Shown piece by piece: positions 1 to 37,008 of a stretch of 46,847 bases of DNA (positions are counted from its first letter, which is position 1; every line of letters starts with the position of its first letter). Location of the stretch: assembly GCA_003990765.1 (NCBI GenBank), contig RBNJ01000052.1, positions 1-46,847 of the forward strand, written 5' to 3'. Below the pieces are notes generated by a model. It saw only the letters and a program-made list of their open reading frames with translations, made no database searches and had not been told where the DNA came from. The position numbers and the translations under genes were made by a program. The stretch is from Jimgerdemannia flammicorona. Lineage: Eukaryota.

Positions 1-139
1 CCCTAACCCTAACCCTAACCCTAACCCTAACCCTAACCCTAACCCTAACCCTAACCCTAACCCTAACCCTAACCCTAACCCTAACCCTAACCCTAAGCCT
101 AACCCTAACCTAACCCTAACCCTAACCCTAACCCTAACC
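1..139 (+). repeat. Terminal telomeric tract (CCCTAA)n, ~23 units, left chromosome end
   Basis: Direct CCCTAA repeats from base 1. One GCCTAA variant (97-102) and one CCTAA variant. Confidence 0.98.
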
Positions 140-217
140 TTTCTGCGATCTAACACGGCTATTGCTCGACTCTGTCGATTTCTTGCACAAATCTTTGCTT
201 AAACTACACAACCGTCA

Positions 218-240
218 CCCTAACCCTAACCCTAACCCTA
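218..240 (+). repeat. Internal short telomeric tract (~4 CCCTAA units) at the 5' junction of retrotransposon copy 1
   Basis: CCCTAA x3 + CCCTA immediately before GGCCGCTCACGTG, the 5' end shared with copies 2 and 4. Confidence 0.95.
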
Positions 241-316
241 GGCCGCTCACGTGATTTCCCCATTTGGTTAGACTCGGCTTTACGGCCCGACAAACACACC
301 TCCGCCTATTTCGGCA

Positions 317-1816
317 ATGTCGGCCTCCTCCTCCGTCGTCGGTGATGACGGCAACGCCACCCGCCTTTTCGCGCGCTTCGGCGCCTCGCTCCACTGTGCT
401 GAATGTCGCGGCGTCGGTCTTCTCTCCCTCGGCTTCGGCGAGGGTAGCCTTATGGCAATGTGCAGGTCGTGCGGGGATGTACGACCGATATCGGCATATT
501 TATCTTTCCTGCGCGATGCGGAAGATGACGAAGAGATTGCGATCTCTTCCGATTCGGACCACAACGCCCAGCGCCAAAATTACTCTCCCATGCCCCCGCC
601 CCTCAATCGGAACAAGCGTGGTCGCCTGAACATTAGTTTGGGAATGACCCCGACGGCCGGTCATGTGGGCCCCTCAGCCGACCCCGATCTGGTCACGGAG
701 ATGGCCACGATGAGGAAGCAGATCTCGGATCTGCTGGCTCAGGTGGCCGAACTGGCCAAGATCAATGCCCAACTAATGGCGCAGCTTGCCGAGAGGTCGG
801 CTGCCCCAACTTCGTTGCTGTACGGTGCCTCTTCGGGAGGTACCCCCGCCACCCCTTCCACATCCGCCCCCCCCAAGTCATCGGCCCCCCCTCCTACTGG
901 TCCTGCCACGAACACGCGGTCAAAGGCCCAGAAGCGAGCGGACAAGCGGGCCGCTAAAGCCGCCGCGTCGCAGTCTGGTGCGCCGCCAAAGGAGGCAACT
1001 CCCACGGTTGCGCCTCCGGCCGCTAAAGCCGCGCCCCCTAAAAAGGGCAAGGCTAAGGCTCCCGGGCCAGTGCCCCAGGTTACGCCTGTGGGACCCAGCG
1101 CCGCCGGTCCGTCTTCGTCCCCCGCTTCGACCCCCGCCCCCCCCAAATTATACGCTGCCGCCGCCAAGAAGGTCTCTATCAAGGATAAGACCCAGGCATA
1201 CCCCGAGATGGAAAGGGCTGCTGCCGCAGCCGCTCTTTCACGCATGACCCGCAAGCCGACCTCTCATTTGTCGCCGACTGAGAAGGGTGCTAGGCTGCAG
1301 CGTGTGTACGTCGATGGATTCGCCCATCTTAAGATCGGGCAGATCCGGAAGAACTTGTATGACGTCCATGTGATGTTGTCAAAAGTTCTCAACATGTCGT
1401 ACATCTCGGCGTCGACCATCGAATTCCTGCTCCGCCCTGATTATGTCACGGCGTTCCAAAAGAAGATGAAGGTGCTCGGGTTCTCGGTGCTTTCGGCCTG
1501 GGACCCCGCCCTCCCACGCAACAAGAACACCACGGAGGCCGTGAAAACGCGGGTACTCCAATCTTTCCATGCCCGGGTCCGGCAGTTGGCAGGCGAAGCC
1601 ACTGCGAAGAGGCCTGAAGTGCAGACCTTCTACAAGGCGTGGGCCGCGGAACCTTGCCTCGCCCTCCCCTCTGTCGCCTCCCCGTCGGCCGGCCCTGCTT
1701 CGAAGGCAGGTGGTACTGTGGCCGTAACGGGTAATATGGCGATGGATTTGGAAGCTGAAGCCTCCGCCTCAGGTGCTTCTCACGCTGGTGGTGCTAACGC
1801 ACCCAGCCCACAATGA
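317..1816 (+). CDS. Retrotransposon ORF1 protein (499 aa): N-terminal CxxC-x18-CxxC Zn ribbon, coiled coil, P/A/K-rich linker, RRM-like C-terminal domain
   Basis: Open ORF upstream of the EN-RT ORF. Motifs CAEC...CRSC, heptad segment LVTEMATMRKQISDLLAQVAELAKINAQLMAQLAE, YAAAAKK, RVYVDGF...IEFLL. The RRM assignment is inference. Confidence 0.88.
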   Translation: MSASSSVVGDDGNATRLFARFGASLHCAECRGVGLLSLGFGEGSLMAMCRSCGDVRPISAYLSFLRDAEDDEEIAISSDSDHNAQRQNYSPMPPPLNRNKRGRLNISLGMTPTAGHVGPSADPDLVTEMATMRKQISDLLAQVAELAKINAQLMAQLAERSAAPTSLLYGASSGGTPATPSTSAPPKSSAPPPTGPATNTRSKAQKRADKRAAKAAASQSGAPPKEATPTVAPPAAKAAPPKKGKAKAPGPVPQVTPVGPSAAGPSSSPASTPAPPKLYAAAAKKVSIKDKTQAYPEMERAAAAAALSRMTRKPTSHLSPTEKGARLQRVYVDGFAHLKIGQIRKNLYDVHVMLSKVLNMSYISASTIEFLLRPDYVTAFQKKMKVLGFSVLSAWDPALPRNKNTTEAVKTRVLQSFHARVRQLAGEATAKRPEVQTFYKAWAAEPCLALPSVASPSAGPASKAGGTVAVTGNMAMDLEAEASASGASHAGGANAPSPQ

Positions 1817-4779
1817 GAGTCGGGTTCCTCAATGCACATGGACTAACTCAGGACAAGTTCGATGTGCTCAGTCGGTTGATTGGTCCTGCTCTTGACGTTC
1901 TTTTCATTTGTGAAACGTGGCACATTCCGCTGCATCCCTCTCCACTCGTTCACATGTCCTCCCCCCCGGCATCGCACAGGATCGTGGGTCACCAGAACGG
2001 TGGTCTCGTGGTCCTTGTGTCAAACCGTTTCGCCCCCCTCATTTCTGGGTCTTCCGCCGACCCCTTCTATATCCGGCTCATGTTCCAGGGCTTGGCTTTG
2101 ATTGGGGTTTACACCCCCCCATCTCTTTCCATTGGTGGCTTCCGTGATCTGGTGTCTGGACCCTTTCCGGGTAAGGCCCTTTTGATCGGTGACATCAATA
2201 CCCGCTTCGGTGCCCGCCTTGGTGATGTCAACTCCGGTCCTCGTGATCGAATGGATGTCGTCGACACCTCTCTGATGACGTGGTCGCTGAACCACCTGAC
2301 TCCGGTGGCTGGATCCACACGCGTTGATCACGCGTTCGCCACCGCGTCCCTCCATGCGTCCCTCACCTGCTCCACCCCTCCTGTCGCCACCGACCACCCC
2401 TCCCTCCTCACCGTCTCTTTCCCCTTCTCCCCCTTGCCGGTTGCTACCCTGGCAGGCATCCATCGTTACTCTGCGAGATACCTGACCGACCCGGTCGTTC
2501 AAGCCCACCTTCGGGAATCAGCGGATATCGTTTGTGATACCGTTATCAGGTCCATTTACTCTATCAGAGACCACATCGCCGGCTTTCGCTCTGTGGATGA
2601 TCACCAGCAGTTTGTGGATTCCCTTGATGCCCTTTTGACCTCTGGTCTACAGTCAGTGTGTGAGGACACTCTTGGCTCGTATGACGCAAGAGAGATCAGG
2701 GCAGCGCCACTTCCTAGGCGGGACCTCCTTCGCAGTGCATCTTCGGTCTCTGATGCCATCCGTGGTTTCAAGCGAGCGTATCGCTCCACCCCCTCCGCTC
2801 CCCTTCAATCTCGTTCCCCCAACGTCCCGGTGTTCGATAATGTGGTTGCTCACTTTACCACTATCTTCAGCCGGCCGGACGCCTCCCTCCGTCTCGATGA
2901 CTCTGAGGACGTCTTCCCCCTTGGCATGGGAGCTCTTGGGCTGCAGTTTTGGTTTGACCAACCTGCGGTTTGGAGAGCTATCCGCAGCTACCCCCTCTCA
3001 AAGGCATGTGGTGCTGACTCCTTACATGTCCGGATCCTTCGGGTGATGGCAGGTGAGAAGGATGCCCCCTGTAGCCTTTCGAAGGCCCTTTCGTTCTTCT
3101 TCCAGATGTGCGTGGTTTGGGGGCTCACTCCCCGCCGCTGGAACTCTGCCATCATCACCCCGGTCCCCAAGAAGGAGGAATCGTGTACGATCGATGGATT
3201 TCACCCTATTGCTCTGACTGAAATGTTTCGCAGACTCTTCGAGCGGTGCTTGGAAGGATACGTCAAGAGCCGAAGTGGACTGACAGAAATGTCATGCTGC
3301 CAAGGTGGCTTCCGAACCCGCTTCTCATCCCTATCTCATGTCTTGCTCTCGCACGAGACGTGGGCCAAGGGGTGGGGCCGCCGTGTCTTCTTGGACCTCC
3401 GGCAGGCGTATGATCGAGTCCCCCTCAAGTGCATTCTTTCCCGCCTTGAGGAGCGAGGTGCCAATGCGGCCCTCCTTAGCATTATTCGTAGCCTGTTCAA
3501 TCACTGTTCTTATCAGGTGGTTGTTAATGGCCTCGTCACCCCTTCGGTCCCCACTGAGCATTGCCTCTTCCAGGGCTCCCTCCTCTCCCCTTGGCTGTTT
3601 GATGTCTTTATCAACCCCCTTGCCGCCTCCTTCGATGAACAATTTAAGGAGTACGACTTCCCCCTCGGGCTTTTCTTTGCTGATGACATCGCCCTTACCC
3701 CCCGCACTGCCGCGGAAGGGCAAAGGATGGTCGATTTTTGTGAGGACTGGCTCCGGGCGAACGGTATGGAGCTCAATCCCAAGAAGTATGGTTATGTTGG
3801 CCCGGCTGACTGTACTGTGCTTATTGGGGGCGAACCCTGCCCGCGACCCACCTCCTACATGTACCTGGGCGTGCCGTACACCAACAAGGGGTTTGACTTT
3901 GTCGATCTTGCATTGCAGAATGCGGCAAAGGCAGAACATACTCTCGGGTTCTGCCGCGCCCGTGGTCCCCTCTGGTCGCCAATGGTCAAGCTGGCCATCA
4001 TATGTACTTTCATCAGGCCTCAGCTGGAATATGGCCTCCCCCTTCTACGAGCTTCCTGTCCGGCTACTACCACGGGGCTTCAGGTGTTGAAGTGCCCCGA
4101 GCAGGTCTTTGATGATGCTGTCGCCTGGGCGGTTGGATTTTCCGGCCGTCCCTTGCTCGGCAGTTCGATTCTCGGCCTCCCTTCCTTTCTCCGTCGAACG
4201 TCTGACCTCTGCTGCATGTTCCAAGCCCACCTGGATTGGTGTAGCAAGTCGGGCAACAACCCCATCGGTCCTCTTAGTGAGCGCTTTGTCACGCGTCCCC
4301 CGGGTTCTATTATTGACAAGTTCCAGCATTGGACCTCTTGGCTTGACTTCCTCGACTGGTACTGGGACCTCCATCCCCAGGTCCGCAAGACTCGCTTGCT
4401 CCGCTCCTTTCTCCAGTCCTTCCTTCGGGATCAGTTGCTGCAGGAATGGGCCTCCTCCTCCCAGGCTCTCGTTTGGTATATCACCCCCAAAGGCCGCTTG
4501 CGGTCGTGGGGCACCGACCGCGTCCTTTCCTTCCCCCCCCGGCTTGTGCGTTCTGCCCTCACCTGGCACTATGGCTACTTTGGCCAACCCCGCCCCTGCC
4601 CCTGTGGAGATAAGTTTCATCGTGGCCATCTCCTCAGGTGCGGTCTTCTCGACGGTTCTTATTCTGCTTTCCGAGGTTCTTCAGATCGAGATGAACAACT
4701 CGACTGGTTTACCAGTGACGAATGGCAGGAGGAACTTTGCGCCTACCCTCTTCACGCTCTTCACGAGACAGCCTACTAA
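1813..4779 (+). CDS. Retrotransposon ORF2: APE endonuclease + reverse transcriptase + C-terminal Cys/His motif (988 aa; premature stop, consensus stop at 4860)
   Basis: APE motifs FLNAHGL, CETW, GVY, GDIN, VDH, TDH. RT motifs KACGADSL, PVPKK, GFHPIAL, QGGFR, FLDLRQAYDRV, FQGSLLSP, FFADD, YLG. Tail CPCGDKFHRGHLLRC. Copy 2 reads CAC where this copy has TAA (4777). Confidence 0.96.
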   Translation: MRVGFLNAHGLTQDKFDVLSRLIGPALDVLFICETWHIPLHPSPLVHMSSPPASHRIVGHQNGGLVVLVSNRFAPLISGSSADPFYIRLMFQGLALIGVYTPPSLSIGGFRDLVSGPFPGKALLIGDINTRFGARLGDVNSGPRDRMDVVDTSLMTWSLNHLTPVAGSTRVDHAFATASLHASLTCSTPPVATDHPSLLTVSFPFSPLPVATLAGIHRYSARYLTDPVVQAHLRESADIVCDTVIRSIYSIRDHIAGFRSVDDHQQFVDSLDALLTSGLQSVCEDTLGSYDAREIRAAPLPRRDLLRSASSVSDAIRGFKRAYRSTPSAPLQSRSPNVPVFDNVVAHFTTIFSRPDASLRLDDSEDVFPLGMGALGLQFWFDQPAVWRAIRSYPLSKACGADSLHVRILRVMAGEKDAPCSLSKALSFFFQMCVVWGLTPRRWNSAIITPVPKKEESCTIDGFHPIALTEMFRRLFERCLEGYVKSRSGLTEMSCCQGGFRTRFSSLSHVLLSHETWAKGWGRRVFLDLRQAYDRVPLKCILSRLEERGANAALLSIIRSLFNHCSYQVVVNGLVTPSVPTEHCLFQGSLLSPWLFDVFINPLAASFDEQFKEYDFPLGLFFADDIALTPRTAAEGQRMVDFCEDWLRANGMELNPKKYGYVGPADCTVLIGGEPCPRPTSYMYLGVPYTNKGFDFVDLALQNAAKAEHTLGFCRARGPLWSPMVKLAIICTFIRPQLEYGLPLLRASCPATTTGLQVLKCPEQVFDDAVAWAVGFSGRPLLGSSILGLPSFLRRTSDLCCMFQAHLDWCSKSGNNPIGPLSERFVTRPPGSIIDKFQHWTSWLDFLDWYWDLHPQVRKTRLLRSFLQSFLRDQLLQEWASSSQALVWYITPKGRLRSWGTDRVLSFPPRLVRSALTWHYGYFGQPRPCPCGDKFHRGHLLRCGLLDGSYSAFRGSSDRDEQLDWFTSDEWQEELCAYPLHALHETAY

Positions 4780-5367
4780 GCCATAGATGCCATGTGTAAT
4801 TCTGGTGGCCACCTCGCGGTCGGGTTTTACCTGACCGAGATTACGAAGATGCTTGGGTGATCGAGCGATTGCACATTTTCTTTATTTCTTTCTTTCCCCT
4901 CATTCGCCTTGGTTGGTTCCCCCGTTGTTAAGAGCGCATTGAGTTATTCATCTCATATCAGTCGTTTGGAGTTCAGTTGTCGATACGGTTCATGTAGTTG
5001 GCGCTGGGCGAATGTGTATTATATTTTAGCTTCTCTCTTTTTTGCTTTCTGCATTTATTATCCTTACGGCCGTGACTAAATGGTTTTATCCAGCCCGTCC
5101 ATAGGGTGGTCACCTCTCTGGCCTTTGTTTTGTACTTCTTAGCTAGTTGTTTACTTCGCTGGCCTTGTTTTGCTTTTCTCATCTTAGGAGTCTTTGCCAT
5201 TTGTTGCTCTGATGTATCTTATCTTTTCTACAATGAATAAATCCTTACTTGAAGCCTAACCCTAGCCACTCACGTGATTTCCCCATTTGGTTAGACTCGG
5301 CTTTACGGCCCGGAGCTATTCCAAATTAAGAAAGCAGTCACTTTGATTAGCTAAGCCTCTCATCAGG

Positions 5368-5375
5368 TATAAATA
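5368..5375 (+). promoter_or_regulatory. Candidate TATA box (TATAAATA) in the element 5'UTR
   Basis: TATAAATA ~110 nt upstream of the ORF1 ATG (5478). Conserved in copy 4 (11446-11453) and deleted in copy 1. Function not shown. Confidence 0.45.
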
Positions 5376-5477
5376 CCCCCCTTCCCCATTATTTTTTCAT
5401 TGCACAAACAAAGGTCATGTGACCCGTGTTACACAATTTCAACCAAACAAACAAACACACCTCCGCCTATTTCGGCA

Positions 5478-6965
5478 ATGTCGGCCACCTCCTCCGTCGT
5501 CGGCGATGACGGCAGCGCCACCCGTCTCTTCGCGCGCTTCAACGCCTCACTCTGCTACGCTGAATGTCGCGGCGTCGGTCTCCTTTCCCTTGACTTTGGC
5601 GAGGGTAGCCTTACGGCGATGTGCAGGTCGTGCGGGGATGCACGACCGATATCGGCGTATTTATCTTCCCTTCGCGACGCGGAGGATGATGAAGAGATTG
5701 CGATCTCTTCCGATTCGGACCATGATGCCCAGCGCCCCACCAATTACTCTCCCACACCCCACCCCTCAATCGGAACAAGCGTGGTCGCCCAAACATTAGT
5801 TTGGGAATGACCCCAACGGCCGGTCATGCGGGCCTCTCAGCCCACCCCGATTTGGTCACGGAGATGGCCGCAATGAGGAAGCAGATCTCGGATCTGCTGA
5901 CTCAGGTGGCCGAACTGGCCAAAATCAATGCCCAATTGATGGCGCAGCTCGCCGAGAAGTCAGCCGCCCCAACCTCGTTGCTGTATGGTGCTCCTTCGGG
6001 AAGCACCCCCGCCGCCCCTTCCACATCCGCCCCCCCAAGTCCTCGGCCCCCCCTCCTACTGGTCCTGCCGCTAACACGTGGTCGAAGGCCCAGAAAAGAG
6101 CGGATAAGCGGGCCACTAAAGCCGCCGCGTCACAGTCTGGTGCACCGCCAAAGGAGGTAACTCCTGCGGTGGAGCCTCCGGCCACTAAAGCCGCGCCCCC
6201 TAAAAAGGGCAAGGCCAAGGCTCCCGGGCCAGTGCCCCAGGCTACGCCTGTGGGACCCAGCACCACCGGTCCATCTCCGTCCCCCGCTTCGGCCCCCGCC
6301 CCCCCCAAATCGTACGCCGCCGCCGCCAAGAAGGTCTCTATCAAGGATAGGACCCAGGCCTACCCCGAGACAGAAAGGGCAGCTGCTGCCGCCGCCCTTT
6401 CGCGCATGACTCGCAAGCCGACCTCTCATTTGTCGCCGACTGAGAAGGGTGCTAGGCTGCAGCGCGTTTATGTTGACGGGTTCGCCCATCTGAAGATCGG
6501 GCAGATCCGGAAGAACCTGAACGACGTCCATGTAATGTTGTCAAAAGTTCTCAACATGTCATACGTCTCGGCGTCGACAATCGAATTCCTTCTCCGCCCT
6601 AATTATGTCACGGCGTTCCAAAAGAAGATGAAGGTGCTCGGGTTCTCGGTGCTGTCGGCCTGGGACCCTGCACTCCCACGCAACAAGAACGCCACGGAGG
6701 GGTTCTCCAATCATTCCATGCTCGGGTCTGGCAGTTGGCAGGCAAAGCCACTGCGAAGAGGCCTGAGGTGCAGACCTTCTACAGGGCGTGGGCCACGGAA
6801 CTCGGCCTCACCCTCCCCTCCCCCGCCTCCCTGATGGCCGGCCCTGCTTCGAAGGCAGGAGGTACTGTGGCCGTGACGGGTGATATGGCGATGGATTTGG
6901 AAGCTGAAGCTTCCACCTCAAGTGCTTCCCATGCTGTTGGTGCTAACGCGCCCGGCCCCCAATGA
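5478..6965 (+). pseudogene. Copy 2 ORF1, frameshifted
   Basis: ORF1 peptide split over ORFs 5400-5810, 5801-6160, 6169-6834 and 6735-6965. Indels near 5760, 6035 and 6700. Confidence 0.9.
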
Positions 6966-9900
6966 GAGTCGGGTTCCTCAATGCACACGGACTACCCCAG
7001 GACAAGTTCGATGTGCTCAGTCGGTTGATTGGTCCTGCCCTCGATGTTCTTTTCGTATGTGAAACGTGGCACATCCCGCTGCGTCCCTCTCCACTCATTC
7101 ACATGTCCTCCCCTCCGGCATCGCACAGGATCGTGGGTCACCAGAATGGTGGTCTCGTGGTCCTTGTGTCAAACCGTTTCGCCCCCCTCATCTCTGGGTC
7201 CTCCGCCGATCTCTTCCATATCCAGCTCATATTCCAGGGCCTGGCTTTGGTTGGGGTTTACGCCCCCCCCTCTCTTCCCATTGGTGGTTTCCGCGATCTA
7301 GTGTCTGGACTCTTCCCGGGTAAGGCCCTTTTGATCGGTGACATCAATACCCATTTCGGTGCCTGCCTTGGTGACGTCAACTCTGGTCCTCGTGATCGGA
7401 TGGATGTCGTCGACACCGCATTGATGACGTGGTCATTGAACCATCTGACCCCAGTGGCTGGATCCACACACGTTGATCACGCGTTCGCCACCCCGTCCCT
7501 CCACGCATCCCTCACCTGCTCCACCCCTCCTGTCGCTACCGATCATCCCTCCCTCCTCACTGTCTCCTTCCCCTTCTCTCCCTCGCCGGTTGCTGCCTTG
7601 GCTGGTATCCATCGTTACTCTGCGAGATACCTGACCGACCCGGTCATTCAAGCTCACCTTCGGGAATCAGCAGATATCGTTTACAATACCGTTATCAGGT
7701 CTATTTACTCTGTTAGGGACCACATCGCCGGCTTTCACTCTGTGGATGATCGCCAGCAGTTCGTGGATTCCCTTGATGCTCTTTTGACCTCTGGTCTACA
7801 GTCTGTCTGTGAGGACATTCTTGGCTCGTATGACGCAAGAGAAATCAGAGCAGCGCCGCTCCCTAGGCATGACCTCCTCTGCAGTGCATCTTCGGTCTCT
7901 GATGCCATCCATGGCTTTAAGCGAGCTTATCGCTCTACCCCTTCCGCACCCCTTCAGTCTCGCTCCCCCAATGTCCCTGTGTTTGATGATGTGATTGCAC
8001 ACTTTACCACTATCTTCAGCCAGCTGGATGCCTCCCTCTGCCTCGATGACTCTGAAGATGTCTTCCCCCTTGGCGTGGGCGCTCTTGGGCTGCAGTCTTG
8101 GTTTGACCAACCTGCGGTTTGGAGGGCTGTCCGCAGCTACCCCCTCTCTAAGATATGTGGTGCCGACTCCTTGCACGTCCAGATCCTTCGAGTGATGGCG
8201 GGTGAGAAGGACGCCCCCTGTAGCCTTTCGAAAGCCCTCTCATTCTTCTTCCAGATGTGTGTGGTCTGGGGGCTCACTCCCCGCCGCTGGAACTCAGCCA
8301 TCATCACCCTGGTCCCTAAGAAGGAGGAATCGCGTACGATCGATGGATTTCGCCCTATTGCTCTGACTGAAATATTTCGTAGACTCTTCGAGCGGTGTTT
8401 GGAAGGATACGTCAAGAGCCGAAGTGGCCTGACAGAAATGTTGCGCTGCCAAGGCGGCTTCCGAACCCGCTTCTCGTCCCTTTCCCATGTCCTGTTATCG
8501 CACAAGACATGGGCCAAGAGATGGAGCCACCGTGTCTTTTTGGACCTCCGGCAGGCGTACGATCGAGTCCCCCTCAAGTGCATTCTTTCTCGCCTTGAGG
8601 CGCGAGGTGCCGATGTGGCCCTCCTTAGCATTATCCGAAGCTTGTTCAACCACTGTTCTTATCGAGTGGTTGTTAATGGCCTCATCACCTCTTCGGTCCC
8701 CACTGAGCATGGCCTCTTTCAGGGCTCCCTCCTCTCCCCCTGGCTCTTTGATGTCTTTATTGATCCTCTCGCCGCCTCTTTTGATGAACAGTTCAAGGAG
8801 TATGACTTTCCCCTCGGGCTCTTCTTTGCTGATGACATCGCCCTTACCCCCCGCACTGCCGCGGAAGGGCAAAGGATGGTCAATTTTTGCGAAGACTGGC
8901 TCCGGGTGAACGGCATGGAGCTCAATCCCAAGAAGTGTGGTTATGTTGGCCCTGCTGACTGTACTGTGCTGATTGGGGGTGTGCCCTGCCCGTGAGCCAC
9001 CTCCTACGTGTACCTGGGAGTGCCATACACCAACAAAGGGTTTGACTTTATCGACCTGGCGTTGCAGAATGCGGCGAAGGCGGAACGAACTCTTGGGTTC
9101 TGCCGTGCCCGTGGTCCCCTCTGGTCGCCAATAGTCAAGCTGGCCATCATACGTACTTTCATCAGGCCTCAGCTGGAGTATGGCCTCCCCCTTCTACGAG
9201 CTTCCTGTCCGGCTACTACCACGGGGCTTCAGGTGTTGAAGCGTCCTGAGCAGGTCTTTGATGATGCTGTCACTTGGGCAGTTGGATTTTCCGGCCGTCC
9301 CTTGCTCGGCAGTTCGATTCTCGGCCTCCCTTCCTTCCTTCGTCATATGTCTGACCTCTGCTGCATGTTCCAAGCCCACCTGGATTGGTGTAGCAAGTCG
9401 GGCAACAACCCTGTCAGCCCCCTTAGCGAGTGTTTTGTCACACGTCCCCCGGGTTCTATTATTGACAAGTTCCGGTGTTGGACCTCCTGGCTTGACTTCC
9501 TCGACTGGTACTGGGACCTCCGTCCCCAGGTCTGCAAGACTCACTCACTCCGCTCCTTCCTCCAGTCCTTCCTCCTGGATCAGCTGCTGCAGGAATGGGC
9601 CTCCTCCTCCCAGGCTCTCATTCGGTACATTACCCCCAAAGGCCGTTTATGGTCGCGGGGCACCAATCGCGTCCTCTCCTTTCCCCCCTGGCTTGTGCAT
9701 TCTGCCCTCGCTTGGTGCTCTGGCTATTTTGGCCAACCCCGCCCCTGCCCCTGTAGAGATAAGTTTCATCGTGGCCATCTTCTCAGGTGCGGTCTTCTCG
9801 ACGGTTCGTATTCTGCTTTCCGAGGTTCTTCAGATCGAGATGAACAGCTCGACTGGTTTACCAGTGACGAATGGCAGGAGGAACTTCATGCCTATCCTCT

Positions 9901-10009
9901 TCACACTCTTCACGAGACAGCCTACCACGCTATCGACGCCATGTGTAATTCTGGTGGCCACCTTGCGGTCGGGTTCTGCCTGACCGAGATTATGAAGATG
10001 CTTGGGTGA
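6962..10009 (+). pseudogene. Copy 2 ORF2 (EN-RT), 1015 codons with one in-frame CGA>TGA stop at 8993-8995
   Basis: ORFs 6962-8995 and 9008-10009 share a frame. Total 3048 nt, equal to copy 1 1813-4860. Confidence 0.93.
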
Positions 10010-10413
10010 TCGAGCGATCGCACATTTTCTTTACTTCTTTCTTTCCCCTCATTCACCCTGGTTGGTTCCCCCGTTGTTGAGAACACATTGAATTGTTCAT
10101 TTCATATCAGTCGTTTGGTGTCTGGTTGACGATATGGTTCTTGTAGTAAGCGCCGGGCAAATGTGTATTATATCTTAGCTTTTCTTTTTCTGCTTTCTGC
10201 ATTTATTATCTCTACGGCCGTGACTAAATGGTTTATCCAGCCCGTCCATAGGGTGGTCACCTCTCTGGCTCTTGTTTTGTACTTCTTAGCTAGTTGTTTA
10301 CTTCGCTGGCCTTGTTTTGCTTTTCTCGTCTTAGGAGTCTTTGTCTTTTGTTGCTCCGATGTAACTTGTCTTCTCTACAATGAATAAATTCTTACTTGAA
10401 GCCTAACCCTAAC

Positions 10414-11324
10414 CCTTGACTGGTACTGGGACCTCCATCCCCAGGTCCACAAGACTTGCTTGCTCCACTCCTTCCTTCAGTCTTTCCTTTGGGATCAGCT
10501 GCTGCAGGAATGAGCCTCCTCCTCCCAGGTTCTCATTCAGTATATCACCCCCAAAGGCTGCTTGCGGTCGCAGGGCGCCGACTGTGTCCTCTTCTTCCCC
10601 CCCTGGCTTGTGCATTCTGCACTCGCCTAGCATTACGGCTATTTTGGCCAACCCTGCTCCTGCCCTTGTGGAGATAAGTTTCATCATGGCTATCTCCTCA
10701 GGTGCGCTCTTCTTGATGGTTCATATTCTGCTTTCTGAGGTACTTCCGATCGAGATAAACAACTTAATTGGTTTACCAGTGACGAATAGTAGGAGGAACT
10801 TCATGCCTACCCTCTTCACACTCTTTACGAGATAGCCTATCATACTACAGATACCATGTATAATTCTGGTGGCCACCTCATGGTTGGGTTTTGCCTGGCT
10901 GAGACCACAAAGATGCTTGGGTGATTGAGCGATCGCACATTATCTTTACTCCTTTCTTTCCTCTTGTTTGCCTTGGTTGGTTTCCAATTATTAAGAGTAT
11001 ATTGAGTTATTTATCTCATATCAGTCGTTTGGTGTTTGGTTGTTGATACAATCTCTGTAGTTAGTATCAAGCGAACATATATTATATCCTAGCCTTCCTC
11101 TTCTTTGCTCTTTTGTATTTATTATCTTTATGGCCATGACAAAATGGTTTTATCTAGCCTGTCCATAGGGTGGTCACCTCTCTGGCCTTTGGTTTATTTT
11201 TCTTAGCTAGTTGTTTTACTTTGCTGATCTTGCTTTACTTCTTCTATCCTAGGAGTCTTTGCCTTTTATTGCTCTGATATATCTTATCTTCTCTACAATA
11301 AATAAATTCTTACTTAAAGCCTTA
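10414..11324 (+). mobile_element. Telomeric retrotransposon copy 3, 5'-truncated (end of ORF2 + 3'UTR)
   Basis: Starts at the position equivalent to ~4350 of copy 1 (CCT-TGACTGGTACTGGG). AATAAA 11301-11306. Ends AAAGCCTTA, followed by CCCTTA CCCTTA CCCTAA. Confidence 0.93.
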
Positions 11325-11883
11325 CCCTTACCCTTACCCTAACCCACTCAAGCGATTTCCCCATTTGGCTAGACTCGGCTTTATGGCCTGAAGCTATTCC
11401 AAATTCAGAAAGCAGTCACTTTGATTAGCTAAGCCTCTTATTAGGTATAAATACCCCTTTCTTCATTATATTTTCATTATACAAACAACAGTCATGTGAC
11501 CTATATTTCACAATTTCATAAACACAAACAAACACACCTCTGCCTAATTTAGCAATGTCAGTCACCTCCTCTGTCATAGGTGATGATGGCAATGCCAACC
11601 ATCTCTTTGTGCACTTCAGGGCCTCTCTCTACTGTGCCAAATATCATGACGTCAGTCTCCTCTCTCTTGGCTTCAACAAGGGTAGCCTTATGGTAATGTG
11701 CAGGTCATATAGGGATATTTGACTGATATCAGCGTATTTATCTTCCCTGTATGGTGCGGAAGAAGATGAAGAGATTATAATCTCTTCTGATTCAGACTCA
11801 GATGCCCAGTGCCCCCCCTACTCTCCCACACCCTTGCACCCTCAATCGGAATAAGTATGGTTGCCCAAACACTAGTTTAGGTA

Positions 11884-11995
11884 GTCAAGTCCTTCGGGAC
11901 CGCTGACACTTGAAAAAATTGGAATGATACAGAGAAGATTAGCATGGCCCCTGCACAAGAATGACAGTATCTTCCTGAGTGGATAGCCCTATACG
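11884..11995 (+). pseudogene. U6: U6 snRNA retrocopy inserted in copy 4 ORF1
   Basis: 5' hairpin GTCC-TTCG-GGAC. Core AAATTGGAATGATACAGAGAAGATTAGCATGGCCCCTGCACAAGAATGACA (ACAGAGA box, AGC triad, ISL). Flanked by the 16-bp direct repeat AACACTAGTTTAGGTA (11868-11883, 11996-12011). Confidence 0.93.
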
Positions 11996-12753
11996 AACAC
12001 TAGTTTAGGTATGACCCCGACTGCCAGTCATGCGGGCCCCTCAGCCGTCTCTGATCTAGTTATGAAGATGGCTACAATGAGGAAGCAGATTTTGGATCTG
12101 TTGACTCAAGTGGTCAAACTGGCCAAGATCAATGCCCAGCTGATGGTGCAGCTTGCTGAATGATCTGCACCCACTGCCCCCTTGTCATCTGGTGCTCCTT
12201 CGGGAAGTACCCCCACCACTCCTTCCACATCCACTCCCCCCCAAGTCCTTGGCCCCCCCTCCTACTGGACCTACTATAAACACACAGTTGAAGGCCTAGA
12301 AGAGAGTAAACAAGCAGGCTGCTAAAGCTGCCATATTGTAGTCTGGCACACTGCTAAAGGAGGTAGCTCCCATGGCTGTGCCTCTGGTCACTAAAGCCAA
12401 GCCCCCTAAAAAGAGCAAGGCCAAAGCCCCCAGACCAGTGCCCCAGGTTATGCCTGTAGGACTCAGTGCCACCATTCCGTCTTTATCTCCTGCTTCAACC
12501 CCTGTCTCCCCCAAATCATCCACTACTGCCACCAAGAAGGTCTCTATCAAAGATAGGACCCAGGCCTACCTCGAGATGGAAAGGGCAGCTGCTGCCACCA
12601 CTCTTTTGTGCATGACCTACAAGCCGACCTCTCATTTATTGCTGACTGAGAAGGGCACTCGGCAGCAGTATGTTTACATTAATGGGTTTGTACATCTTAA
12701 GATCAGGCAGATCTGGAGGAACTTGTATGACATCCATGGGATGTTCTCAAAAG

Positions 12754-12758
<5 letters not shown>

Positions 12759-12809
<51 letters not shown>

Positions 12810-14265
12810 CATTTATTAACTATCTATAACATTCTACATATCCTCATACAACATCAGTAGTCCCATTCTACCCCAATCTCAACCCACTCCCAGCCTTGCA
12901 TCTTTAGGGTGTGAGTTGTAACCTCAATGCCTAAGTAACTAGATCCTCCTACCCAGCCTACCCCACCCAGTGGGTATGGGTTGTGAGCCCCAACCACCTC
13001 AAGTACTTGACATCTAGTACACCTGACCTACCCCTATTAGTACCTTCTGTCTTGCCTATCTAGCCTGTCTTGCCTGCCCATGTTACCCATATTGCCATCT
13101 TGCTGTCTTGCCCATCTTACCCATCTTGCCCGTCTTGCCTGCCCATGTTGCCCGTGTTGCCCATATTACCCTGTTGCCCGCTCGTGTTGCCTGTATTGCC
13201 CGTCTTGCCCATCTTGCCCATGTTGCCCATATTACCCATCTTGCCCATCTTGCCCGTCTTGTCCATCTTGCCCACCCATATTGCCCCTGTTGCCCATGTT
13301 GCCCAAGTTACCCGTGTTGCCCGTATTGCCTGTTTTGCCTGTTTTGCCTGTTTTGCCCGTATTGCCTGTTTTGCCTGTTTTGCCTGTTTTGCCCATCTTG
13401 CCCATGTCGCCTGTCTTGCCATCTGCCCATCTTGCCCATGTTGACCATCTTGCTGTCTTGCCCTTCTTGCCCATCTTGCCCCCCTGTGTTGCCCATATTG
13501 CCCATGTTGCCCGTGTTTTCCATATTGCCCATGTTGCCCATATTGCCCATATTGCCTGTGTTGCCCATGTTGCCCATATTGCCCATATTGCCCATATTGC
13601 CTGTATTGCCTGTATTGCCCATGTTGCCCGTATTGCCCGTGTTACCCAACCATGTTGCCCATATTGCCCATATTGCCCGCCTGTGTTGCCAGTGTTGCCC
13701 GTATTGCCCGTTTTGCCCATTTTGCCCATTTTGCCCATTTTGCCCATTTTGTCCATTTTGCCCATTTTGCCCATTTTGCCCATTTTGCCCATTTTGCATG
13801 GCTTGTCCATGTCTCCTGTCTTGCTCTCTGCCCATCTTGCCCAGCCATCTTGCCGTCTTGCCCATCTTGCCCGTCTTACCCATCTTGCCCATCTTGCCCA
13901 TCTTGCCCATCTTGCCTGTCTTGCCCATCTTGTCCATGTCATCCATCTCCCATCTTGTCATCTTTCCATCTTGCCCATCTTGCCCGTCTTGCCCGTCTTA
14001 TCCGTCTTGCCTACCTGTATTGCCTGTGTTGCCCATGTTGTCCTTGTTACCTGTGTTGCCCATTTTGCCTGTTTTGCCCATGTCACCTATCTTGCCGTCT
14101 GCCCATCTTGCCCATATCGCCCATCTTGCTGTCTTGCCGTCTTGTCTGTCTTGCCCGTCTTGCCTATGTTGCCCATGTTGCCCATGTTGCCCGGGTTTGT
14201 TTCTCCCAGTTATATGTAAAACCATTGCTTGAAGTTTATGTCATGCGAATTGTACTGGAGAGAGG
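12759..14265 (-). mobile_element. Non-autonomous poly(A) retroposon with L1/Tx1-family 5' end and internal minisatellite
   Basis: T48 at 12759-12806, with TTTATT (AATAAA on minus) at 12812-12817. 17-bp TSD TGTT(C/G)TCAAAAGTTCTC (12742-12758, 14266-14282). Minus-strand 5' end CCTCTCTCCAGTACAATTCGCAT resembles the 5' ends of the LINEs in this window. Confidence 0.85.
13048..14193. repeat. Degenerate 9-bp minisatellite (TTGCCCATN / TTGCCCGTN / TTGCCTGTN), ~120 units
   Basis: Direct reading of the tandem units. Produces repetitive ORFs in multiple frames on both strands. Confidence 0.95.
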
Positions 14266-17200
14266 TGTTGTCAAAAGTTCTCAATATGTTATACGTCTCA
14301 TCGTTGACCATTGAATTTCTGCTCTACCCTGATTATGTCACAGCATTCCAAAAGAAGATGAAGGTGCTCAGGTTCTCGGTGCTATTGACCTGGAACCCTG
14401 CAACAAGAATGCCATGGAGGCCATGAAGACATGGATACTTCAGTCATTCCATGCTTGGGTCCGGCAGTTAGCTGGTGAAGCCACTGCGAAGAGGCCTGAG
14501 GTGCAGACCTTCTACAGAGCTTGGGCCATGGAACTCAGCCTTACTCTCCCATTCTCTGTCCCCCCATCAGCTGGCTCAGCTTCGAAGGCAAGTGGTACCA
14601 TGGCTATGATGGGTGATATGGCAATGGATTTGGAAGCCAAAGCTTCCTTCTCAGGTACTTTTCATGCTGTTGGCACTAATACGCCCAGCCCACAATGAGA
14701 GTTAGATTCCTCAATACACACAGACTACTCTAGGACAAGTTTGATGTGCTCAGTTGGTTGATTGATCCTGCCCTTGACATTCTTTTCATATGTGAAACAT
14801 TGCACATCCTGCTGCGTCCCACTCCGCTCAATCACATGTCCTCCTCCCCGGTATCGCACAGGATCGTTGGTCATCAGAATGGTGGCCTCGTGATTCTCAT
14901 GTCAAACCGTTTTGCCCCCCTTATTTCTGAGTCCTCTGCTGACCCCTTCCATATCTGGCTCATGTTCCAGGGCCTGACTTTGATTGGAGTTTATGCCCCA
15001 CCCTCTATTCTTATTGGTGGTTTCTGAGATGTGGTTTCTGGACCCTTTTCAGGTAAGGCCCTTTTGATTGGTGACATCAATACCCACTTCAGTGCCTGCC
15101 TTGGTGATGTCAACTCTGGTCCCCGTGACCAGATGGATGTCGTCAACACCTCCCTGATAACGTGGTCATTGAACCATCTGACCCTGGTGGCTGGATCCAC
15201 ATACATTGATCATGCATTCACCACCATGTCCCTCTATGCATCCCTCACTTGCTCTACTCCTCTTATCACTACTGACCACCACTCCCTCCTAATTGTCTCC
15301 TTTCCCTTCTCCTCCTCACCGGTTGCTGCCTTGGCTGGTATCCATCATTACTCTGCAAAATACCTATCCAATCTGATCATTCAAGCTCACCTCCGAGAAT
15401 CAGTGGATATCATTTGCGATACTGTTGTCAGGTCCATCTACTCTATCAGAGACCCTATCCCTGGCTTTTGCTCTGTGGAAGACTGCCAGCAGTTTGTAGA
15501 TTCTCTAGATGCCCTTTTGACCTCTGGTCTATAGTTAGTCTGTGAGGACATTCTTGGCTCGTATGACATAAGAGAGATCAGGGTGGCACCACTCTCTCAG
15601 TGGGACCTTCTTCACAGTGCATCTCCAGTCTCTGATACCATTCGTGGTTTCAAGTAAGCATACTGCTCTACTCCTCTTGCACTCCTCCAATCTCACTCCA
15701 CCAATGTCCCAGTGTTTGATGATGTGGTCACCCATTTCACCACTATCTTCAGTCAGTCTGATGCCTCTCTCTGTCTCGATGACTCTGAGGATGTCTTCTC
15801 CTTCAGCGTGGGTGCTCTTGGACTGCAGTCTTGGTTTGACCAGCCTGTGGTTTGGAGGGCTATCCGTAGCTACTGCCTCTCGAAGGTGTGTGGAACTGAC
15901 TCCTTATATGTCCAGATCCTTCGAGTGATGGCAGGTGAGAAGGATGCCCCCTGTAGCCTGTCAAAGGCCCTATTGTTCTTCTTCCAGATCTGCGTGGTTT
16001 GGGGGCTCACTCTCTACTGCTGGAACTCTGCCATTATCACTCCGGTCTCTAAGAAGGAGGAATCACATACAATTAATGGATTTCGCCCTATTGCTCTGAC
16101 TGAAATGTTTCATAGACTCTTCGAGCAGTGTTTGGAAGGATATCTCAAGAGCCGAAGTGGCCTGACAGAAATATCATGCTGCCAAGGTGGCTTCTGAACC
16201 CACTTCTCATCCCTCTCTCATATCTTTCTTTCACACGAGATGTTGGCTAAGGGATGGGGGCACCGTGTCTTTCTTGACCTCTGGCAGGCATATGACTGGG
16301 TCTCCCTCAAGCTCATTCTTTCACGACTTGAGGTGCGAGGTACCGATGTGGCCCTCCTTAGCATTATCCGAAGCCTGTTCAATCACTGTTCCTACCAGGT
16401 GGTTTTTAATGGCCTTGTCACTTCTTCGATCCCCACTGAGCATGGCCTCTTCCAGGGCTCCCTCCTCTCTCCTTGGCTGTTTGATGTCTTTATTAACCCT
16501 CTTGCTGCCTCCTTTGATGAACAATTTAAGGAGTATAACTTCCCCCTCAGGCTCTTCTTTGCTAATGATATTGCCCTTACCCCCCGCACTGCTGCAGAAG
16601 GGCAGAGGATGGTTGACTTTTGTGAAGACTGGCTTTCGGTGAATGGTATGGAGCTCAACCCCAAGAAGTGTAGTTATGTTGGCCCTGCTGACTGTACCAT
16701 GCTGATTGGGGGCAAACTCTGCCTGCGACCCCCCTCCTACATATACCTGGGCATACCATATACCAACAAAGGGTTTGACTTTGTCAGCCTCGCTTTGTGG
16801 AATGTGGCAAAGGCAGAATGAACTCTTGGGTTCTGCCATGCCCATGGTCCTCTCTGGTCGCCAATGGTTAAGTTGGCAATTGTATGAACATTCATCAGAC
16901 CTCAGCTGGAGTATGGCCTCCCCTCTTTCGTCTGTCATATGTCTGACCTCTGCTGCATGATCCAAGCCCACCTGGATTGGTGGTGCAAGTCTAGCAATAA
17001 CCCCATCGGCCCCCTTAGCGAGTGCTTTATCATGCATCCCCTAGATTCTATCATTGACAAGTTCTGGCATTGGACCTCCTGGCTTGACTTCCTCAACTGA
17101 TACTGGGACCTTTGTCTCCAGGTCTGCAAGACTCGCTTGCTCTGCTCCTTCCTCCAGTCCTTCCTTTGGTATTAGCTGCTGCAGGAATGGGCCTCCTTCT

Positions 17201-17997
17201 CTAGGCTCTCATTTGGTATATCACCCCCAAAGGCCACTTGCAGTCACAGGGTGCCAACTACGTCCTCTCCTTCTCTCCCTGGCTGGTGCGTTCTGCCCTT
17301 GTCTGGCGTTATGGCTATTTTGGCCAACCCCCCCCTGCTCCTGTGGAGATAAGTTTCATCATGGCCATCTCCCCAGGTGTGGTCTTCTCTATGGTTTATA
17401 TTCTGCTTTCCAAGATACTTTCAATTGAGATGAACAGCTTGATTGGTTTACCAATAACGAATGGCAGAAGAACTTTATGCCTACCCTCTTCACGCTCTTC
17501 ACGAGACAGCCTATCATGCTATCGATGCTATGTGTAATTCTGGTGGTCACCTGGCGGTTGGGTTCTGCCTGATCAAGATTATGAAGATGCTTGGGTGATC
17601 GAGCGATTGCACATTTTCTTTACTTCTTTCTTCCCTCTTGTTTGCCTTGGTTGGTTCTCTCATTGTTGAGAACATATTGAGTTATTCATCTCATGTCAGT
17701 CGTTTGGTGTTTGGTTGTTGATACAGTTCATATAGCTGGCACTGGGCAAATGTGTATTATATCTTAGTTTTTCTTTTCTTTACTTTCTGCATTTATTATC
17801 TTTATGACTATGACAAAATGGTTTTATCCAGCCCATCCATAGAGTGGTCACCTCTCTGGCCTTTGTTTTGTTTTTCTTAACTAGTTGTTTACTTCGTTGG
17901 TCTTGTTTTGCTTTTCTCATCTTAGGAGTCTTTGTCTTTTATTGCTCTGATGTACCTTGTCTTCTCTATAATGAATAAATCCTTACTTGAAGCCTAA

Positions 17998-18007
17998 CTC
18001 TAACCCT
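17998..18007 (+). repeat. Innermost relic telomeric repeats (CTCTAA CCCT), proximal boundary of the array
   Basis: Follows GAAGCCTAA of copy 4. The CCCT overlaps the broken end of the minus-strand LINE. Confidence 0.75.
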
Positions 18008-22438: not shown

Positions 22439-23182
22439 CTCCTTTTATTTGACCCTGATTTTCAGCCACAACAGAACTGGTTTTTATATTACCAAAAACT
22501 GGTTTTGCTATCAACTTAAAAAACATGCTTTTGAATTTCCCTAATAGTAATATTAAAAGTAAAATGATATTTCACCATTAAACTGAATAACACAATAAAC
22601 CAGATGAGTAGACAGTAGATATGGCAGCTATTCACCTAACAAAAGAGAAATATTCTGTTCTAGCCCAACTTCCAATAAAGGGCAGAAAAATATTAGAAGA
22701 CATTACAAGATGCAGTAAAATATCAGTGTAACACCCATGTCAACCAACCGTAACATTTGAAATATTTCATTGCAACTGCACTCAAGTCATTGCAAAAACG
22801 TGGGTCTACTGCGGTTATAACTCGGACAACCGCATCAAAATTGTTAATTTGGAATTGAATACATTTCCTATTATGTCTTATCTATCCTCACACAACTTTC
22901 CGAACACTGTTTCTGAGTGCTGCATGCTTCATTCAATGCTAAGAAACTTCCATACCGATATATTTGACTTTGGCAAAAGACAACATACAATCTCATAAAG
23001 ATCGTAGCTAGGAACGTGCTATCAACTAATTAACATGCAATGAAATAACCACTAGGCAAATAACTTCTAAGCAAACTTGGTGAGCATCAGCGCGAAGTTG
23101 AAGAAAGAGGACAATTTGAAAATATGCAAAACACAACCCTAGAGTCATGAGCCACCATCTACACTAAGAACAAATGCTAATC

Positions 23183-25956: not shown

Positions 25957-26095
25957 TGGGGGGGACACAGTGGCCAGAGTTGATATCCGGAGGGAGGGGG
26001 GGAGGTTGGAGCAACAGTAAAACAAAGGAACGAGTGAATGGGGCGGGAGCAAAGGCGGTCACGGTGGGTAGGTCAATCGCCGTGGTCTGTGTCGA

Positions 26096-31167: not shown

Positions 31168-31182
31168 AGTAGTTTAACTGCC

Positions 31183-36993: not shown

Positions 36994-37008
36994 AGTAGTT
37001 TAACTATC

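What the first reader, a model, noticed from the sequence alone, without database searches (positions are those of the whole stretch)
5236..5264. 3' end has no poly(A) tail and mimics a telomere repeat, allowing telomerase-like priming on the G strand
Seen: all four copies end AATAAA-12 nt-GCCT(A/T)A and run in register into CCCT(A/T)A-type repeats (5254, 10401, 11319, 17992), with no A tail, whereas the L1-type insertions here have long tails. Inference: the RNA end ...GCCU-AA (or read-through GCCUAACCC) pairs with a G-strand 3' end such as ...GGGTT or ...TTAGG. That end could be an endonuclease nick (TRAS1 nicks between TT and AGG) or the natural chromosome overhang. Reverse transcription would then extend the G strand in the direction telomerase does.
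Basis: partly seen in the sequence, partly recalled or inferred. Interest (0 to 1): 0.75.

Follow-up and report, generated by a model that had tools for sequence, protein, structure and literature searches.

The report
Telomere-primed LINE end without poly(A)
This is the tail end of a jumping gene that stacks up at chromosome tips: instead of the usual poly(A) run it ends in a few telomere repeats, probably because its RNA pairs with the telomere's G-rich strand to start copying, a trick known from other telomere elements but not, in the papers found, from this family.

Summary
Observation confirmed and extended. The window is a chromosome end with four head-to-tail copies of an APE-endonuclease LINE. 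All 133 junctions examined in this genome keep the GCCTAA register (119 exactly) and none has poly(A) at the element end. AATAAA closely followed by telomere repeats recurs in 17 of 28 distant relatives and 0 of 33 outgroup LINEs. Arrays grow outward (25 of 28 pairs) and are never nested (0 of 25), so cDNA extends the G strand as telomerase does. The RNA is probably polyadenylated, with the tail bypassed. Pairing to a ...TTAGG primer is inferred, not shown. Nick versus free end is unresolved: the endonuclease is intact, yet junction tracts are short and an endonuclease-less Penelope-like element in the same arrays leaves similar tracts. No telomerase-like repeat addition is shown, and TERT loci exist. 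Precedents are TRAS1, MoTeR/FoTeR, Coprina/Athena and Tx1-1_ACar. The clade was not found in print. The scan noted this family before on at least eight other contigs. Verdict: new variant of a known kind.

The parts
1..139 (+). Terminal telomere tract (CCCTAA)23, C strand reading inward; one GCCTAA variant at 97-102
140..217 (+). 3' fragment (about 77 nt) of a second telomeric retroelement, an endonuclease-less Penelope-like element (family B)
   Evidence: 21 matches in G000; upstream ORF with PLE-type RT motifs and no GIY-YIG hit
218..240 (+). Telomeric junction tract between the family B fragment and copy 1
242..5253 (+). LINE copy 1 (outermost, near full length; 138-nt deletion in the 5' UTR)
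   Evidence: 93.7% to the family majority
317..1816 (+). ORF1, 499 aa, no Pfam family above cut-off; its stop overlaps the ORF2 start (ATGA)
1813..4860 (+). ORF2: APE endonuclease (N, E, Y, D-x-N, D-H and TDH motifs present), RT, C-terminal CxC-x7-H-x3-C; premature TAA at 4777-4779, 27 codons before the family stop
5236..5241 (+). AATAAA, putative polyadenylation signal
   Evidence: near-invariant in 133 copies; recurs before telomere repeats in 17 of 28 relatives
5242..5253 (+). 12-nt spacer TCCTTACTTGAA
5254..5264 (+). G + CCTAA CCCTA: element/telomere boundary and junction tract; predicted RNA ends after 5257/5258 or after 5263/5264
   Evidence: the RNA ends are inference
5264..10400 (+). 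LINE copy 2 (full length, decayed); AATAAA at 10383, tract 10401-10416 with 3-nt microhomology to truncated copy 3
10414..11318 (+). LINE copy 3 (5'-truncated, 0.9 kb); AATAAA at 11301, tract 11319-11345
11344..17991 (+). LINE copy 4 (innermost, most decayed, two later insertions); AATAAA at 17974, tract 17992-18007 joined to other DNA
11889..11996 (+). U6-like retro-copy inserted in copy 4 with a 14-bp target duplication
12759..14265 (-). Poly(A)-tailed (T48 on +) insertion with a 9-nt repeat, ~17-bp target duplication, in copy 4
31169..36994 (+). L1-type insertion with A23 tail 21 nt after AATAAA and 11-bp target duplication (comparison element)

Best explanation
The stretch is the 3' end of a telomere-specific APE-endonuclease LINE. 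SHOWN: copies are added one after another at chromosome tips, 5' end outward, and never leave poly(A). INFERRED: the RNA is cut, and probably polyadenylated, 17-24 nt after AAUAAA, that is at GCCU|A or GCCUAACCCU|A. Its last 5-11 nt before the tail (CCUAA or CCUAACCCUAA) pair with a G-strand 3' end of the type ...GGGTTAGG. RT starts inside this pairing, skips the tail and copies up to 5 kb onto the G strand. The new 5' end, which itself begins with a telomere-like CCTAA-GCC, is then capped by telomerase or by the next copy. The 3'-OH is most likely made by the element's own endonuclease in the terminal telomere tract (I put nick versus free end at about 60:35). Tracts left behind peak at 12-17 nt because stable pairing needs about two repeats and longer internalised tracts are rare or are later lost.
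For: 119 of 133 junctions start GCCTAA, the rest are 1-2 base variants, and none has A-tracts at the element end. Orientation is inward-facing in all telomere-anchored arrays. Outer younger in 25 of 28 pairs, p=2.7e-5; 0 of 25 nested. In 29 host A-tails with an upstream AATAAA, 21 lie 17-24 nt downstream (a few families, so not independent). AATAAA plus telomere repeat in 17 of 28 clade relatives, 0 on the reverse strand, 0 of 33 outgroup LINEs. The repeat type changes in some relatives: CCCTAAA in L095/L105 (one element) and CCTAA in L088. The base before the first CCTAA is non-C in 8 of 17 relatives and G here. Among 82 junctions onto truncated or unrelated DNA, 11 tracts are 11 nt or less, 49 are 12-17, 14 are 18-23 and 8 are 24 or more (11 vs 49, p=8e-7). 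EN catalytic motifs align with L1 EN and are kept across 26-36% identical relatives. TRAS1 and SART1 need 10-12 bp of repeat around the nick (PMC7265360 passages). MoTeR interstitial tracts of three or more repeats break (PMC7367193 passages).
Against: No RNA evidence, so the RNA end and the poly(A) status are predicted only. SART1 inserts at various repeats of a long tract (PMC7265360), which would give longer tracts than seen unless purging is strong, and MoTeR tracts run from half a repeat to over 20, unlike here. The endonuclease-less family B leaves comparably short tracts (median 19 vs 16 nt, p=0.15), so short tracts do not need an endonuclease. Microhomology at junctions (3 nt or more in 8 of 23 vs 1.8% null) is seen equally at telomerase-type caps (4 of 11 usable), so it does not show RNA-DNA pairing by the element. 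11 of 28 relatives lack the motif. The register inference from relatives is weak because the search pattern requires CCTA. Spacer length versus tract length in relatives is only weakly anticorrelated (rho -0.42, p=0.09, n=18).
Confidence: 0.55

Rival explanations
1. Endonuclease-independent healing. The same RNA-DNA pairing takes place, but the primer is the free 3' end of a critically short, broken or freshly seeded chromosome end. The element competes with telomerase for uncapped ends.
For: 82 of 133 junctions sit on truncated copies or unrelated DNA. Tracts of 30 perfect nt or more are 2, against 115 of 14 nt or more, while terminal tracts are 78-323 nt. No nesting and strict outward order. 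Family B, which lacks a detectable endonuclease, occupies the same arrays with similar tracts. EN-less Coprina/Athena attach to G-rich overhangs via reverse-complement repeats (PMC8557442 passages). L1 can insert at uncapped telomeres without its EN target site (PMC4700185 passages).
Against: The endonuclease active site is conserved across the clade. The tract distribution is more sharply peaked than that of family B (12-17 nt: 49 of 82 vs 3 of 15, p=0.009; six B-to-B junctions left out, B lengths read by eye). Loss of long internal tracts can explain the shortness without this model.
Confidence: 0.3
2. Element-encoded repeat tail with reiterative copying. The RNA carries its own (CCCUAA)n tail, and RT slips on it and writes telomere repeats de novo, as UnaL2 does with UGUAA. 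This would be truly telomerase-like.
For: GCCTAA is repeated three times (L059) and twice (L160) at 2 of 133 junctions. GCCTAA variants occur in 3 of 23 terminal tracts. A few junctions join non-telomeric DNA after only 7-11 nt. Precedent in PMC1636434 passages.
Against: Other variants (CCCTAC, CCCTCA) are amplified in the same way in old tracts, so replication slippage suffices. CCCTAC (4) and CCCTAG (3) are as frequent as GCCTAA (3) in terminal tracts. No tract variant is shared between related copies. The host cleavage window leaves at most two repeats on the RNA. No dispersed copy with a non-telomeric target duplication was seen among the copies listed.
Confidence: 0.1
3. The uniform junction is inherited. 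Arrays spread between chromosome ends by recombination or break-induced replication, so the many junctions reflect few events.
For: The junction ...AACCTAAGCC to full-length 5' ends recurs many times. One innermost junction is shared by two contigs (C631 and C853).
Against: Apart from alignment artefacts from short adjacent copies, pairs of copies share at most 7 rare changes in up to 1.5 kb. The 82 junctions to truncated or other DNA have almost all different breakpoints. The same end recurs in distant relatives.
Confidence: 0.05

Closest known systems
TRAS1 (R1 clade, Bombyx mori)
   Same: APE endonuclease LINE specific for telomere repeats; nick on the G strand (TT|AGG; PMC7265360 passages), so the same priming strand as inferred here; coexists with telomeric repeats.
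   Different: R1-clade elements mostly end in poly(A) (PMC7265360; for TRAS1 itself recalled), whereas this family leaves none. The EN model here matches L1 EN structures, and no TRAS1 or R1Bm EN appears among the listed top 50 ranks. SART1 inserts inside long tracts, not at the tip.
MoTeR1/2 (Magnaporthe oryzae), FoTeR (Fusarium oxysporum), Cnl1
   Same: Fungal, head-to-tail arrays in TTAGGG telomeres; FoTeR 3' ends are followed by 3-7 repeats and 5' ends by a single telomere-like motif (PMC12857005 section 19).
   Different: They are CRE/SLACS-type with a C-terminal REL endonuclease (PMC12857005 section 18; PMC7367193 introduction); this element has an N-terminal APE and a separate ORF1. MoTeR interstitial tracts run up to over 20 repeats; here 2 of 115 reach 30 nt.
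Coprina / Athena endonuclease-deficient Penelope-like elements
   Same: [quoted passage not shown] Such an element (family B) shares these arrays.
   Different: PLE RT, no endonuclease, hammerhead-associated ends. The element in question is a two-ORF LINE with an intact APE and an AATAAA-defined end.
Tx1-1_ACar (green anole) and Zepp1 (Chlorella)
   Same: [quoted passage not shown]
   Different: Their 3' junctions could not be read (Repbase report not held; FASTA supplement unreadable). No zf-RVT hit here. Membership in Tx1 is untested.
HeT-A/TART/TAHRE (Drosophila)
   Same: Outward-growing head-to-tail arrays with 5' ends to the tip (polarity recalled).
   Different: Drosophila lacks telomerase and repeats (PMC7265360 introduction); here perfect CCCTAA caps and TERT-like loci are present and there is no oligo(A) junction.
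UnaL2 (eel L2)
   Same: LINE whose DNA copies end in a short repeat instead of poly(A); slippage likened to telomerase (PMC1636434 passages).
   Different: UnaL2's repeat is element-encoded and not telomeric; slippage is not shown here.

Membership tests
APE-type non-LTR retrotransposon | ORF2 with N-terminal APE endonuclease and non-LTR RT | tested here: met
   Pfam RVT_1 E=2e-18 and weak Exo_endo_phos; profile aligns to L1 ORF2p over EN and RT, E=7.5e-42; fold match to L1 ORF2p and L1 EN
APE-type non-LTR retrotransposon | 5'-truncated copies with a fixed 3' end | tested here: met
Telomere-specific non-LTR retrotransposons (functional class) | Insertion only in or at telomeric repeats, single orientation | tested here: met
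   133 of 133 junctions begin with the telomere-like hexamer or a close variant; 20 of 21 listed telomere contigs carry the element within 10 kb, 18 directly under the cap
TRAS/SART (R1 clade) | Poly(A) at the 3' junction | tested here: not met
   0 of 133 at the element end
TRAS/SART (R1 clade) | R1-clade RT/EN phylogeny | tested here: inconclusive
   No labelled R1 references were available for the tree; the structure search favours L1 EN
TRAS/SART (R1 clade) | Endonuclease nicks the telomere repeat at a fixed bond | not testable with these tools
   needs a cleavage assay
MoTeR/FoTeR/Cnl1 (CRE-like) | C-terminal REL endonuclease, no APE | tested here: not met
   An N-terminal APE is present
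Coprina/Athena PLE | PLE-type RT without endonuclease | tested here: not met
   LINE-type RT with APE; family B, not this element, fits by motifs
L1/Tx1 clade | RT branches within L1/Tx1; zf-RVT domain | tested here: inconclusive
   Best PDB match is L1, but only L1 and R2 LINE RTs appeared among the hits; no zf-RVT hit; the element and 49 relatives form a separate 98%-supported group among unlabelled LINEs
Telomerase-like repeat addition | Reiterative copying of a short template | tested here: inconclusive
   GCCTAA x2-3 in 2 of 133 junctions, explainable by replication slippage
Telomerase-like repeat addition | Extends the G strand 5'->3' toward the chromosome tip | tested here: met
   orientation and age gradient

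The most novel reading that the evidence does not exclude
A widespread, undescribed LINE clade uses the host polyadenylation signal as a ruler, so that its RNA ends in a 5-11 nt telomerase-style alignment region. With this it primes on short or broken chromosome ends without nicking, and acts with a Penelope-like partner as a second end-healing system beside telomerase; the alignment repeat changes with the host repeat (CCCTAA, CCCTAAA, CCTAA).
Probability: 0.25. Interest if true: 0.78.

Novelty: new variant of a known kind. Interest (0 to 1): 0.52.

Why it matters
Every ingredient has a precedent, but the combination was not found in the searched literature: an intact APE endonuclease, no poly(A) in any copy, and a conserved AATAAA-to-telomere spacing across a deep clade. 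If it holds, it is an independent origin of telomere targeting. It offers a direct test of how a LINE RT chooses between poly(A) priming and sequence-specific pairing, and of whether an endonuclease-bearing LINE needs its nick at chromosome ends. The genome holds a built-in control, an endonuclease-less Penelope-like element in the same arrays. It does not show that the element maintains telomeres: telomerase-type caps and TERT-like loci are present.

Tried and rejected
RNA evidence: no RNA holder was listed for window 4300-5500, so no reads were laid; this is no evidence either way. Heritable tract variants as proof that the RNA templates the second repeat: C8>T occurs in 9 of 112 junctions, within the 12% background for CCC context, and carriers of rare variants share no more than 3 rare changes with any other copy apart from alignment artefacts and one same-contig neighbour pair with 5; inconclusive. 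Microhomology as proof of RNA-DNA pairing: rejected, because telomerase-type caps show it too (11 of 34 truncated junctions were dropped as not contiguous, and 2 of 13 caps were mis-registered). GCCTAA in terminal tracts as element footprints: rejected. Long interstitial tracts hidden by assembly breaks: none among the first 100 of 260 matches (21 contigs), all facing inward at contig ends; the other 160 rows were not seen. Target-site duplications for this family: only telomeric or neighbouring-copy matches (the class labels of that call were faulty and were redone; its five minus-strand hits came from two stretches my script had turned the wrong way). Clade assignment: no labelled references; ESM Atlas gave only unnamed RT clusters; Deceiver/Inkcap search gave nothing usable. 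Hammerhead in family B: 0 Rfam matches at E<=1 in three loci. Starnes et al. 2012 (PMC3374306) is not held, and the FASTA supplement of PMC10088271 could not be read; both may bear on how MoTeR and Tx1-1_ACar 3' ends compare. The host organism was not determined; earlier scan notes call it fungal.

Full report
1. What the window is. The window is G000:C52:1-46847. It begins with 23 CCCTAA repeats. Four same-strand copies of a 5.1-kb element follow, ending at 5253, 10400, 11318 and 17991. Copy 1 has ORF1 (317-1816) and ORF2 (1813-4860, with a stop 27 codons early). ORF2 has an RT (Pfam E=2e-18) and an N-terminal APE endonuclease. Its motifs (LNAHGL, ICETW, GVYTP, GDINT, RVDH, TDH) align with the L1 EN residues in the family profile. 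An AlphaFold model (mean pLDDT 77) matches L1 ORF2p and L1 EN best. TERT-like sequence lies on two other contigs; whether it is intact was not tested.

2. The observation. All four ends read AATAAA, 12 nt, GCCT(A/T)A at the stated positions, and they are the only 4 of 42 plus-strand AATAAA sites that do. Three other insertions in the window have A/T tails with target duplications; one carries an L1-type RT. Genome-wide there are 207 exact matches to the end motif and none to the reversed control. I collected 133 distinct junctions from fetched stretches, which is part of the family. GCCTAA follows in 119 and a close variant in 14. One has an A-run within 40 nt, after 24 nt of telomere repeat.

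3. Where and how copies are added. Of 21 contigs listed with 12 or more repeats (the first 100 of 260 rows), all have the tract at a contig end facing inward; 20 carry the element within 10 kb and 18 directly under the cap. In telomere-anchored arrays the outer copy is closer to the family majority in 25 of 28 neighbouring pairs (p=2.7e-5). Where a copy sits on a truncated older copy, the missing part is never found on the far side (0 of 25). Copies share few rare changes, so most junctions are separate events. Addition is therefore at the tip, and the cDNA extends the G strand.

4. Where the RNA probably ends. No RNA run was listed. As a substitute I measured AATAAA-to-tail distances in this genome's A-tailed insertions: 21 of 29 are 17-24 nt (55 A-runs examined, 26 without a hexamer; a few families). 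It also suggests that the RNA is polyadenylated. SART1 junctions keep poly(A) (PMC7265360, part 1 of 6 and passages); here none do. Pairing must then reach into CCU and skip the tail, which favours a ...TTAGG primer over AA:TT pairing alone. This step is inference.

5. A clade trait. Thirteen full-length relatives at 26-36% identity were found, and a metagenome scan gave 79 loci. The element and 49 rows form one group with 98% SH-aLRT support among unlabelled LINEs (five loci left out as too short). Of 37 clade loci, 9 were set aside because the 3' end may lie outside the contig. Of the other 28, 17 show A(A/G)TAAA followed within 20 nt by telomere repeats, 0 show it on the reverse strand, and 11 lack it. 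Among 33 outgroup loci with at least 900 nt downstream, 0 show it. L095 and L105 are one element with CCCTAAA; L088 has CCTAA. The hosts' repeats are unknown. The base before the first CCTAA is not C in 8 of 17, which weakly fits a boundary at TTAGG.

6. Nick or free end. Junction tracts are short. Genome-wide, 115 have at least 14 perfect nt and 2 have at least 30, while 23 terminal tracts measure 78-323 nt. For the 82 junctions onto truncated copies (34) or other DNA (48), 11 are 11 nt or less, 49 are 12-17, 14 are 18-23 and 8 are longer. Priming on an intact overhang is thus disfavoured unless long tracts are lost. MoTeR work shows that tracts of three or more repeats break (PMC7367193 passages), and TRAS1/SART1 need 10-12 bp, so a minimum length plus purging can give this peak. 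For a nick: the active site is conserved. For free ends: window 140-217 is the 3' end of a second family (21 matches) with Penelope-type RT motifs (motif assignment recalled), RT-bearing homologues and no GIY-YIG hit in the N- and C-terminal parts scanned. It shares the arrays and polarity and leaves tracts of median 19 nt (15 of 21 junctions, six B-to-B junctions dropped) against 16 nt (p=0.15), though less sharply peaked (p=0.009). Microhomology of 3 nt or more occurs in 8 of 23 contiguous truncated junctions against 1.8% expected, but also in 4 of 11 telomerase-type caps. The question stays open; I put a nick at about 60% and a free short end at about 35%.

7. Telomerase-like? Only in direction and, by inference, in using a short alignment region. 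GCCTAA is reiterated at 2 of 133 junctions, but other variants are amplified likewise, and no variant is inherited.

8. What is known. Telomeric LINEs are listed for insects, Giardia, Chlorella, Magnaporthe and anole (PMC10088271 passages). FoTeRs end in 3-7 repeats and group with the REL-type MoTeR, Cnl1 and CRE elements (PMC12857005 abstract and sections 18-19). Coprina/Athena attach to G overhangs through reverse-complement repeats (PMC8557442 passages). L1 can insert at uncapped telomeres (PMC4700185 passages). UnaL2 slips on a repeat tail (PMC1636434 passages). Searches listed no description of an APE-type, poly(A)-less telomeric LINE clade like this one; the library lacks most subscription journals and Repbase. 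The scan itself reported this family on at least eight other contigs of this genome and on this window.

9. Verdict. The mechanism is plausible and partly precedented. The clade and its AATAAA-ruled telomeric end look undescribed. New variant of a known kind; interest 0.52.

Noticed in passing
window 140-240; L181-L200, L202: A second telomeric retroelement, Penelope-like and apparently without endonuclease (about 3.2-kb unit; several copies 97-98% alike at the 3' end, so younger than the LINE), shares the arrays and polarity. Its 77-nt 3' fragment is the outermost insertion in this window.
   Followed up: partly
window 11882-11996; L159 near 4318-4460: U6-derived retro-copy with a divergent 3' part, no A tail and a 14-bp target duplication; a similar copy lies on contig C5358, which suggests a small U6-derived repeat family.
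   Followed up: partly
window 1813-1816 and 6962-6965: ORF1 stop and ORF2 start overlap as ATGA, suggesting coupled termination-reinitiation.
   Followed up: no
window 289-290 versus 5313-5450: Copy 1 lacks 138 nt of the 5' UTR, including a TATA-like TATAAATA and a GGTCATGTGACC palindrome; the ends are not GT-AG.
   Followed up: no
window 5259-5270 and many F-class junctions: Full-length 5' ends cluster at (A)CCTAA-GCCACTCACGTG, so a finished cDNA ends in TTAGG, a ready seed for telomerase or the next copy.
   Followed up: partly
G000:C164:27429-27917 and C902:18572-18964: Two separate loci match the telomerase RNA-binding domain over overlapping profile positions, so there may be two TERT paralogues.
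   Followed up: partly
L032 near 3270, L049 7697-7739, L179, L176, L065 4788-4845: Tiny (25-45 nt) 3'-end fragments occur in tandem, each with its own repeat tract, here and in a distant relative; these are probably abortive cDNAs.
   Followed up: partly
window 12759-14265: Reverse-oriented A-tailed insertion made largely of a 9-nt repeat (TGCCCATCT); a similar repeat lies in L204.
   Followed up: no
element bodies: Strong C-to-T decay on both strands, highest at CpG (24-45%) and raised at CpA (10-18%).
   Followed up: no
window about 22700-26000: A less decayed, apparently intron-containing gene-like stretch on the minus strand, about 23 kb from the telomere; not identified.
   Followed up: no
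L068, L072, L073, L089: An AT-rich subgroup of the clade (100% support) shows no telomeric ending; L073 has A-rich runs downstream, a possible loss of telomere targeting.
   Followed up: partly
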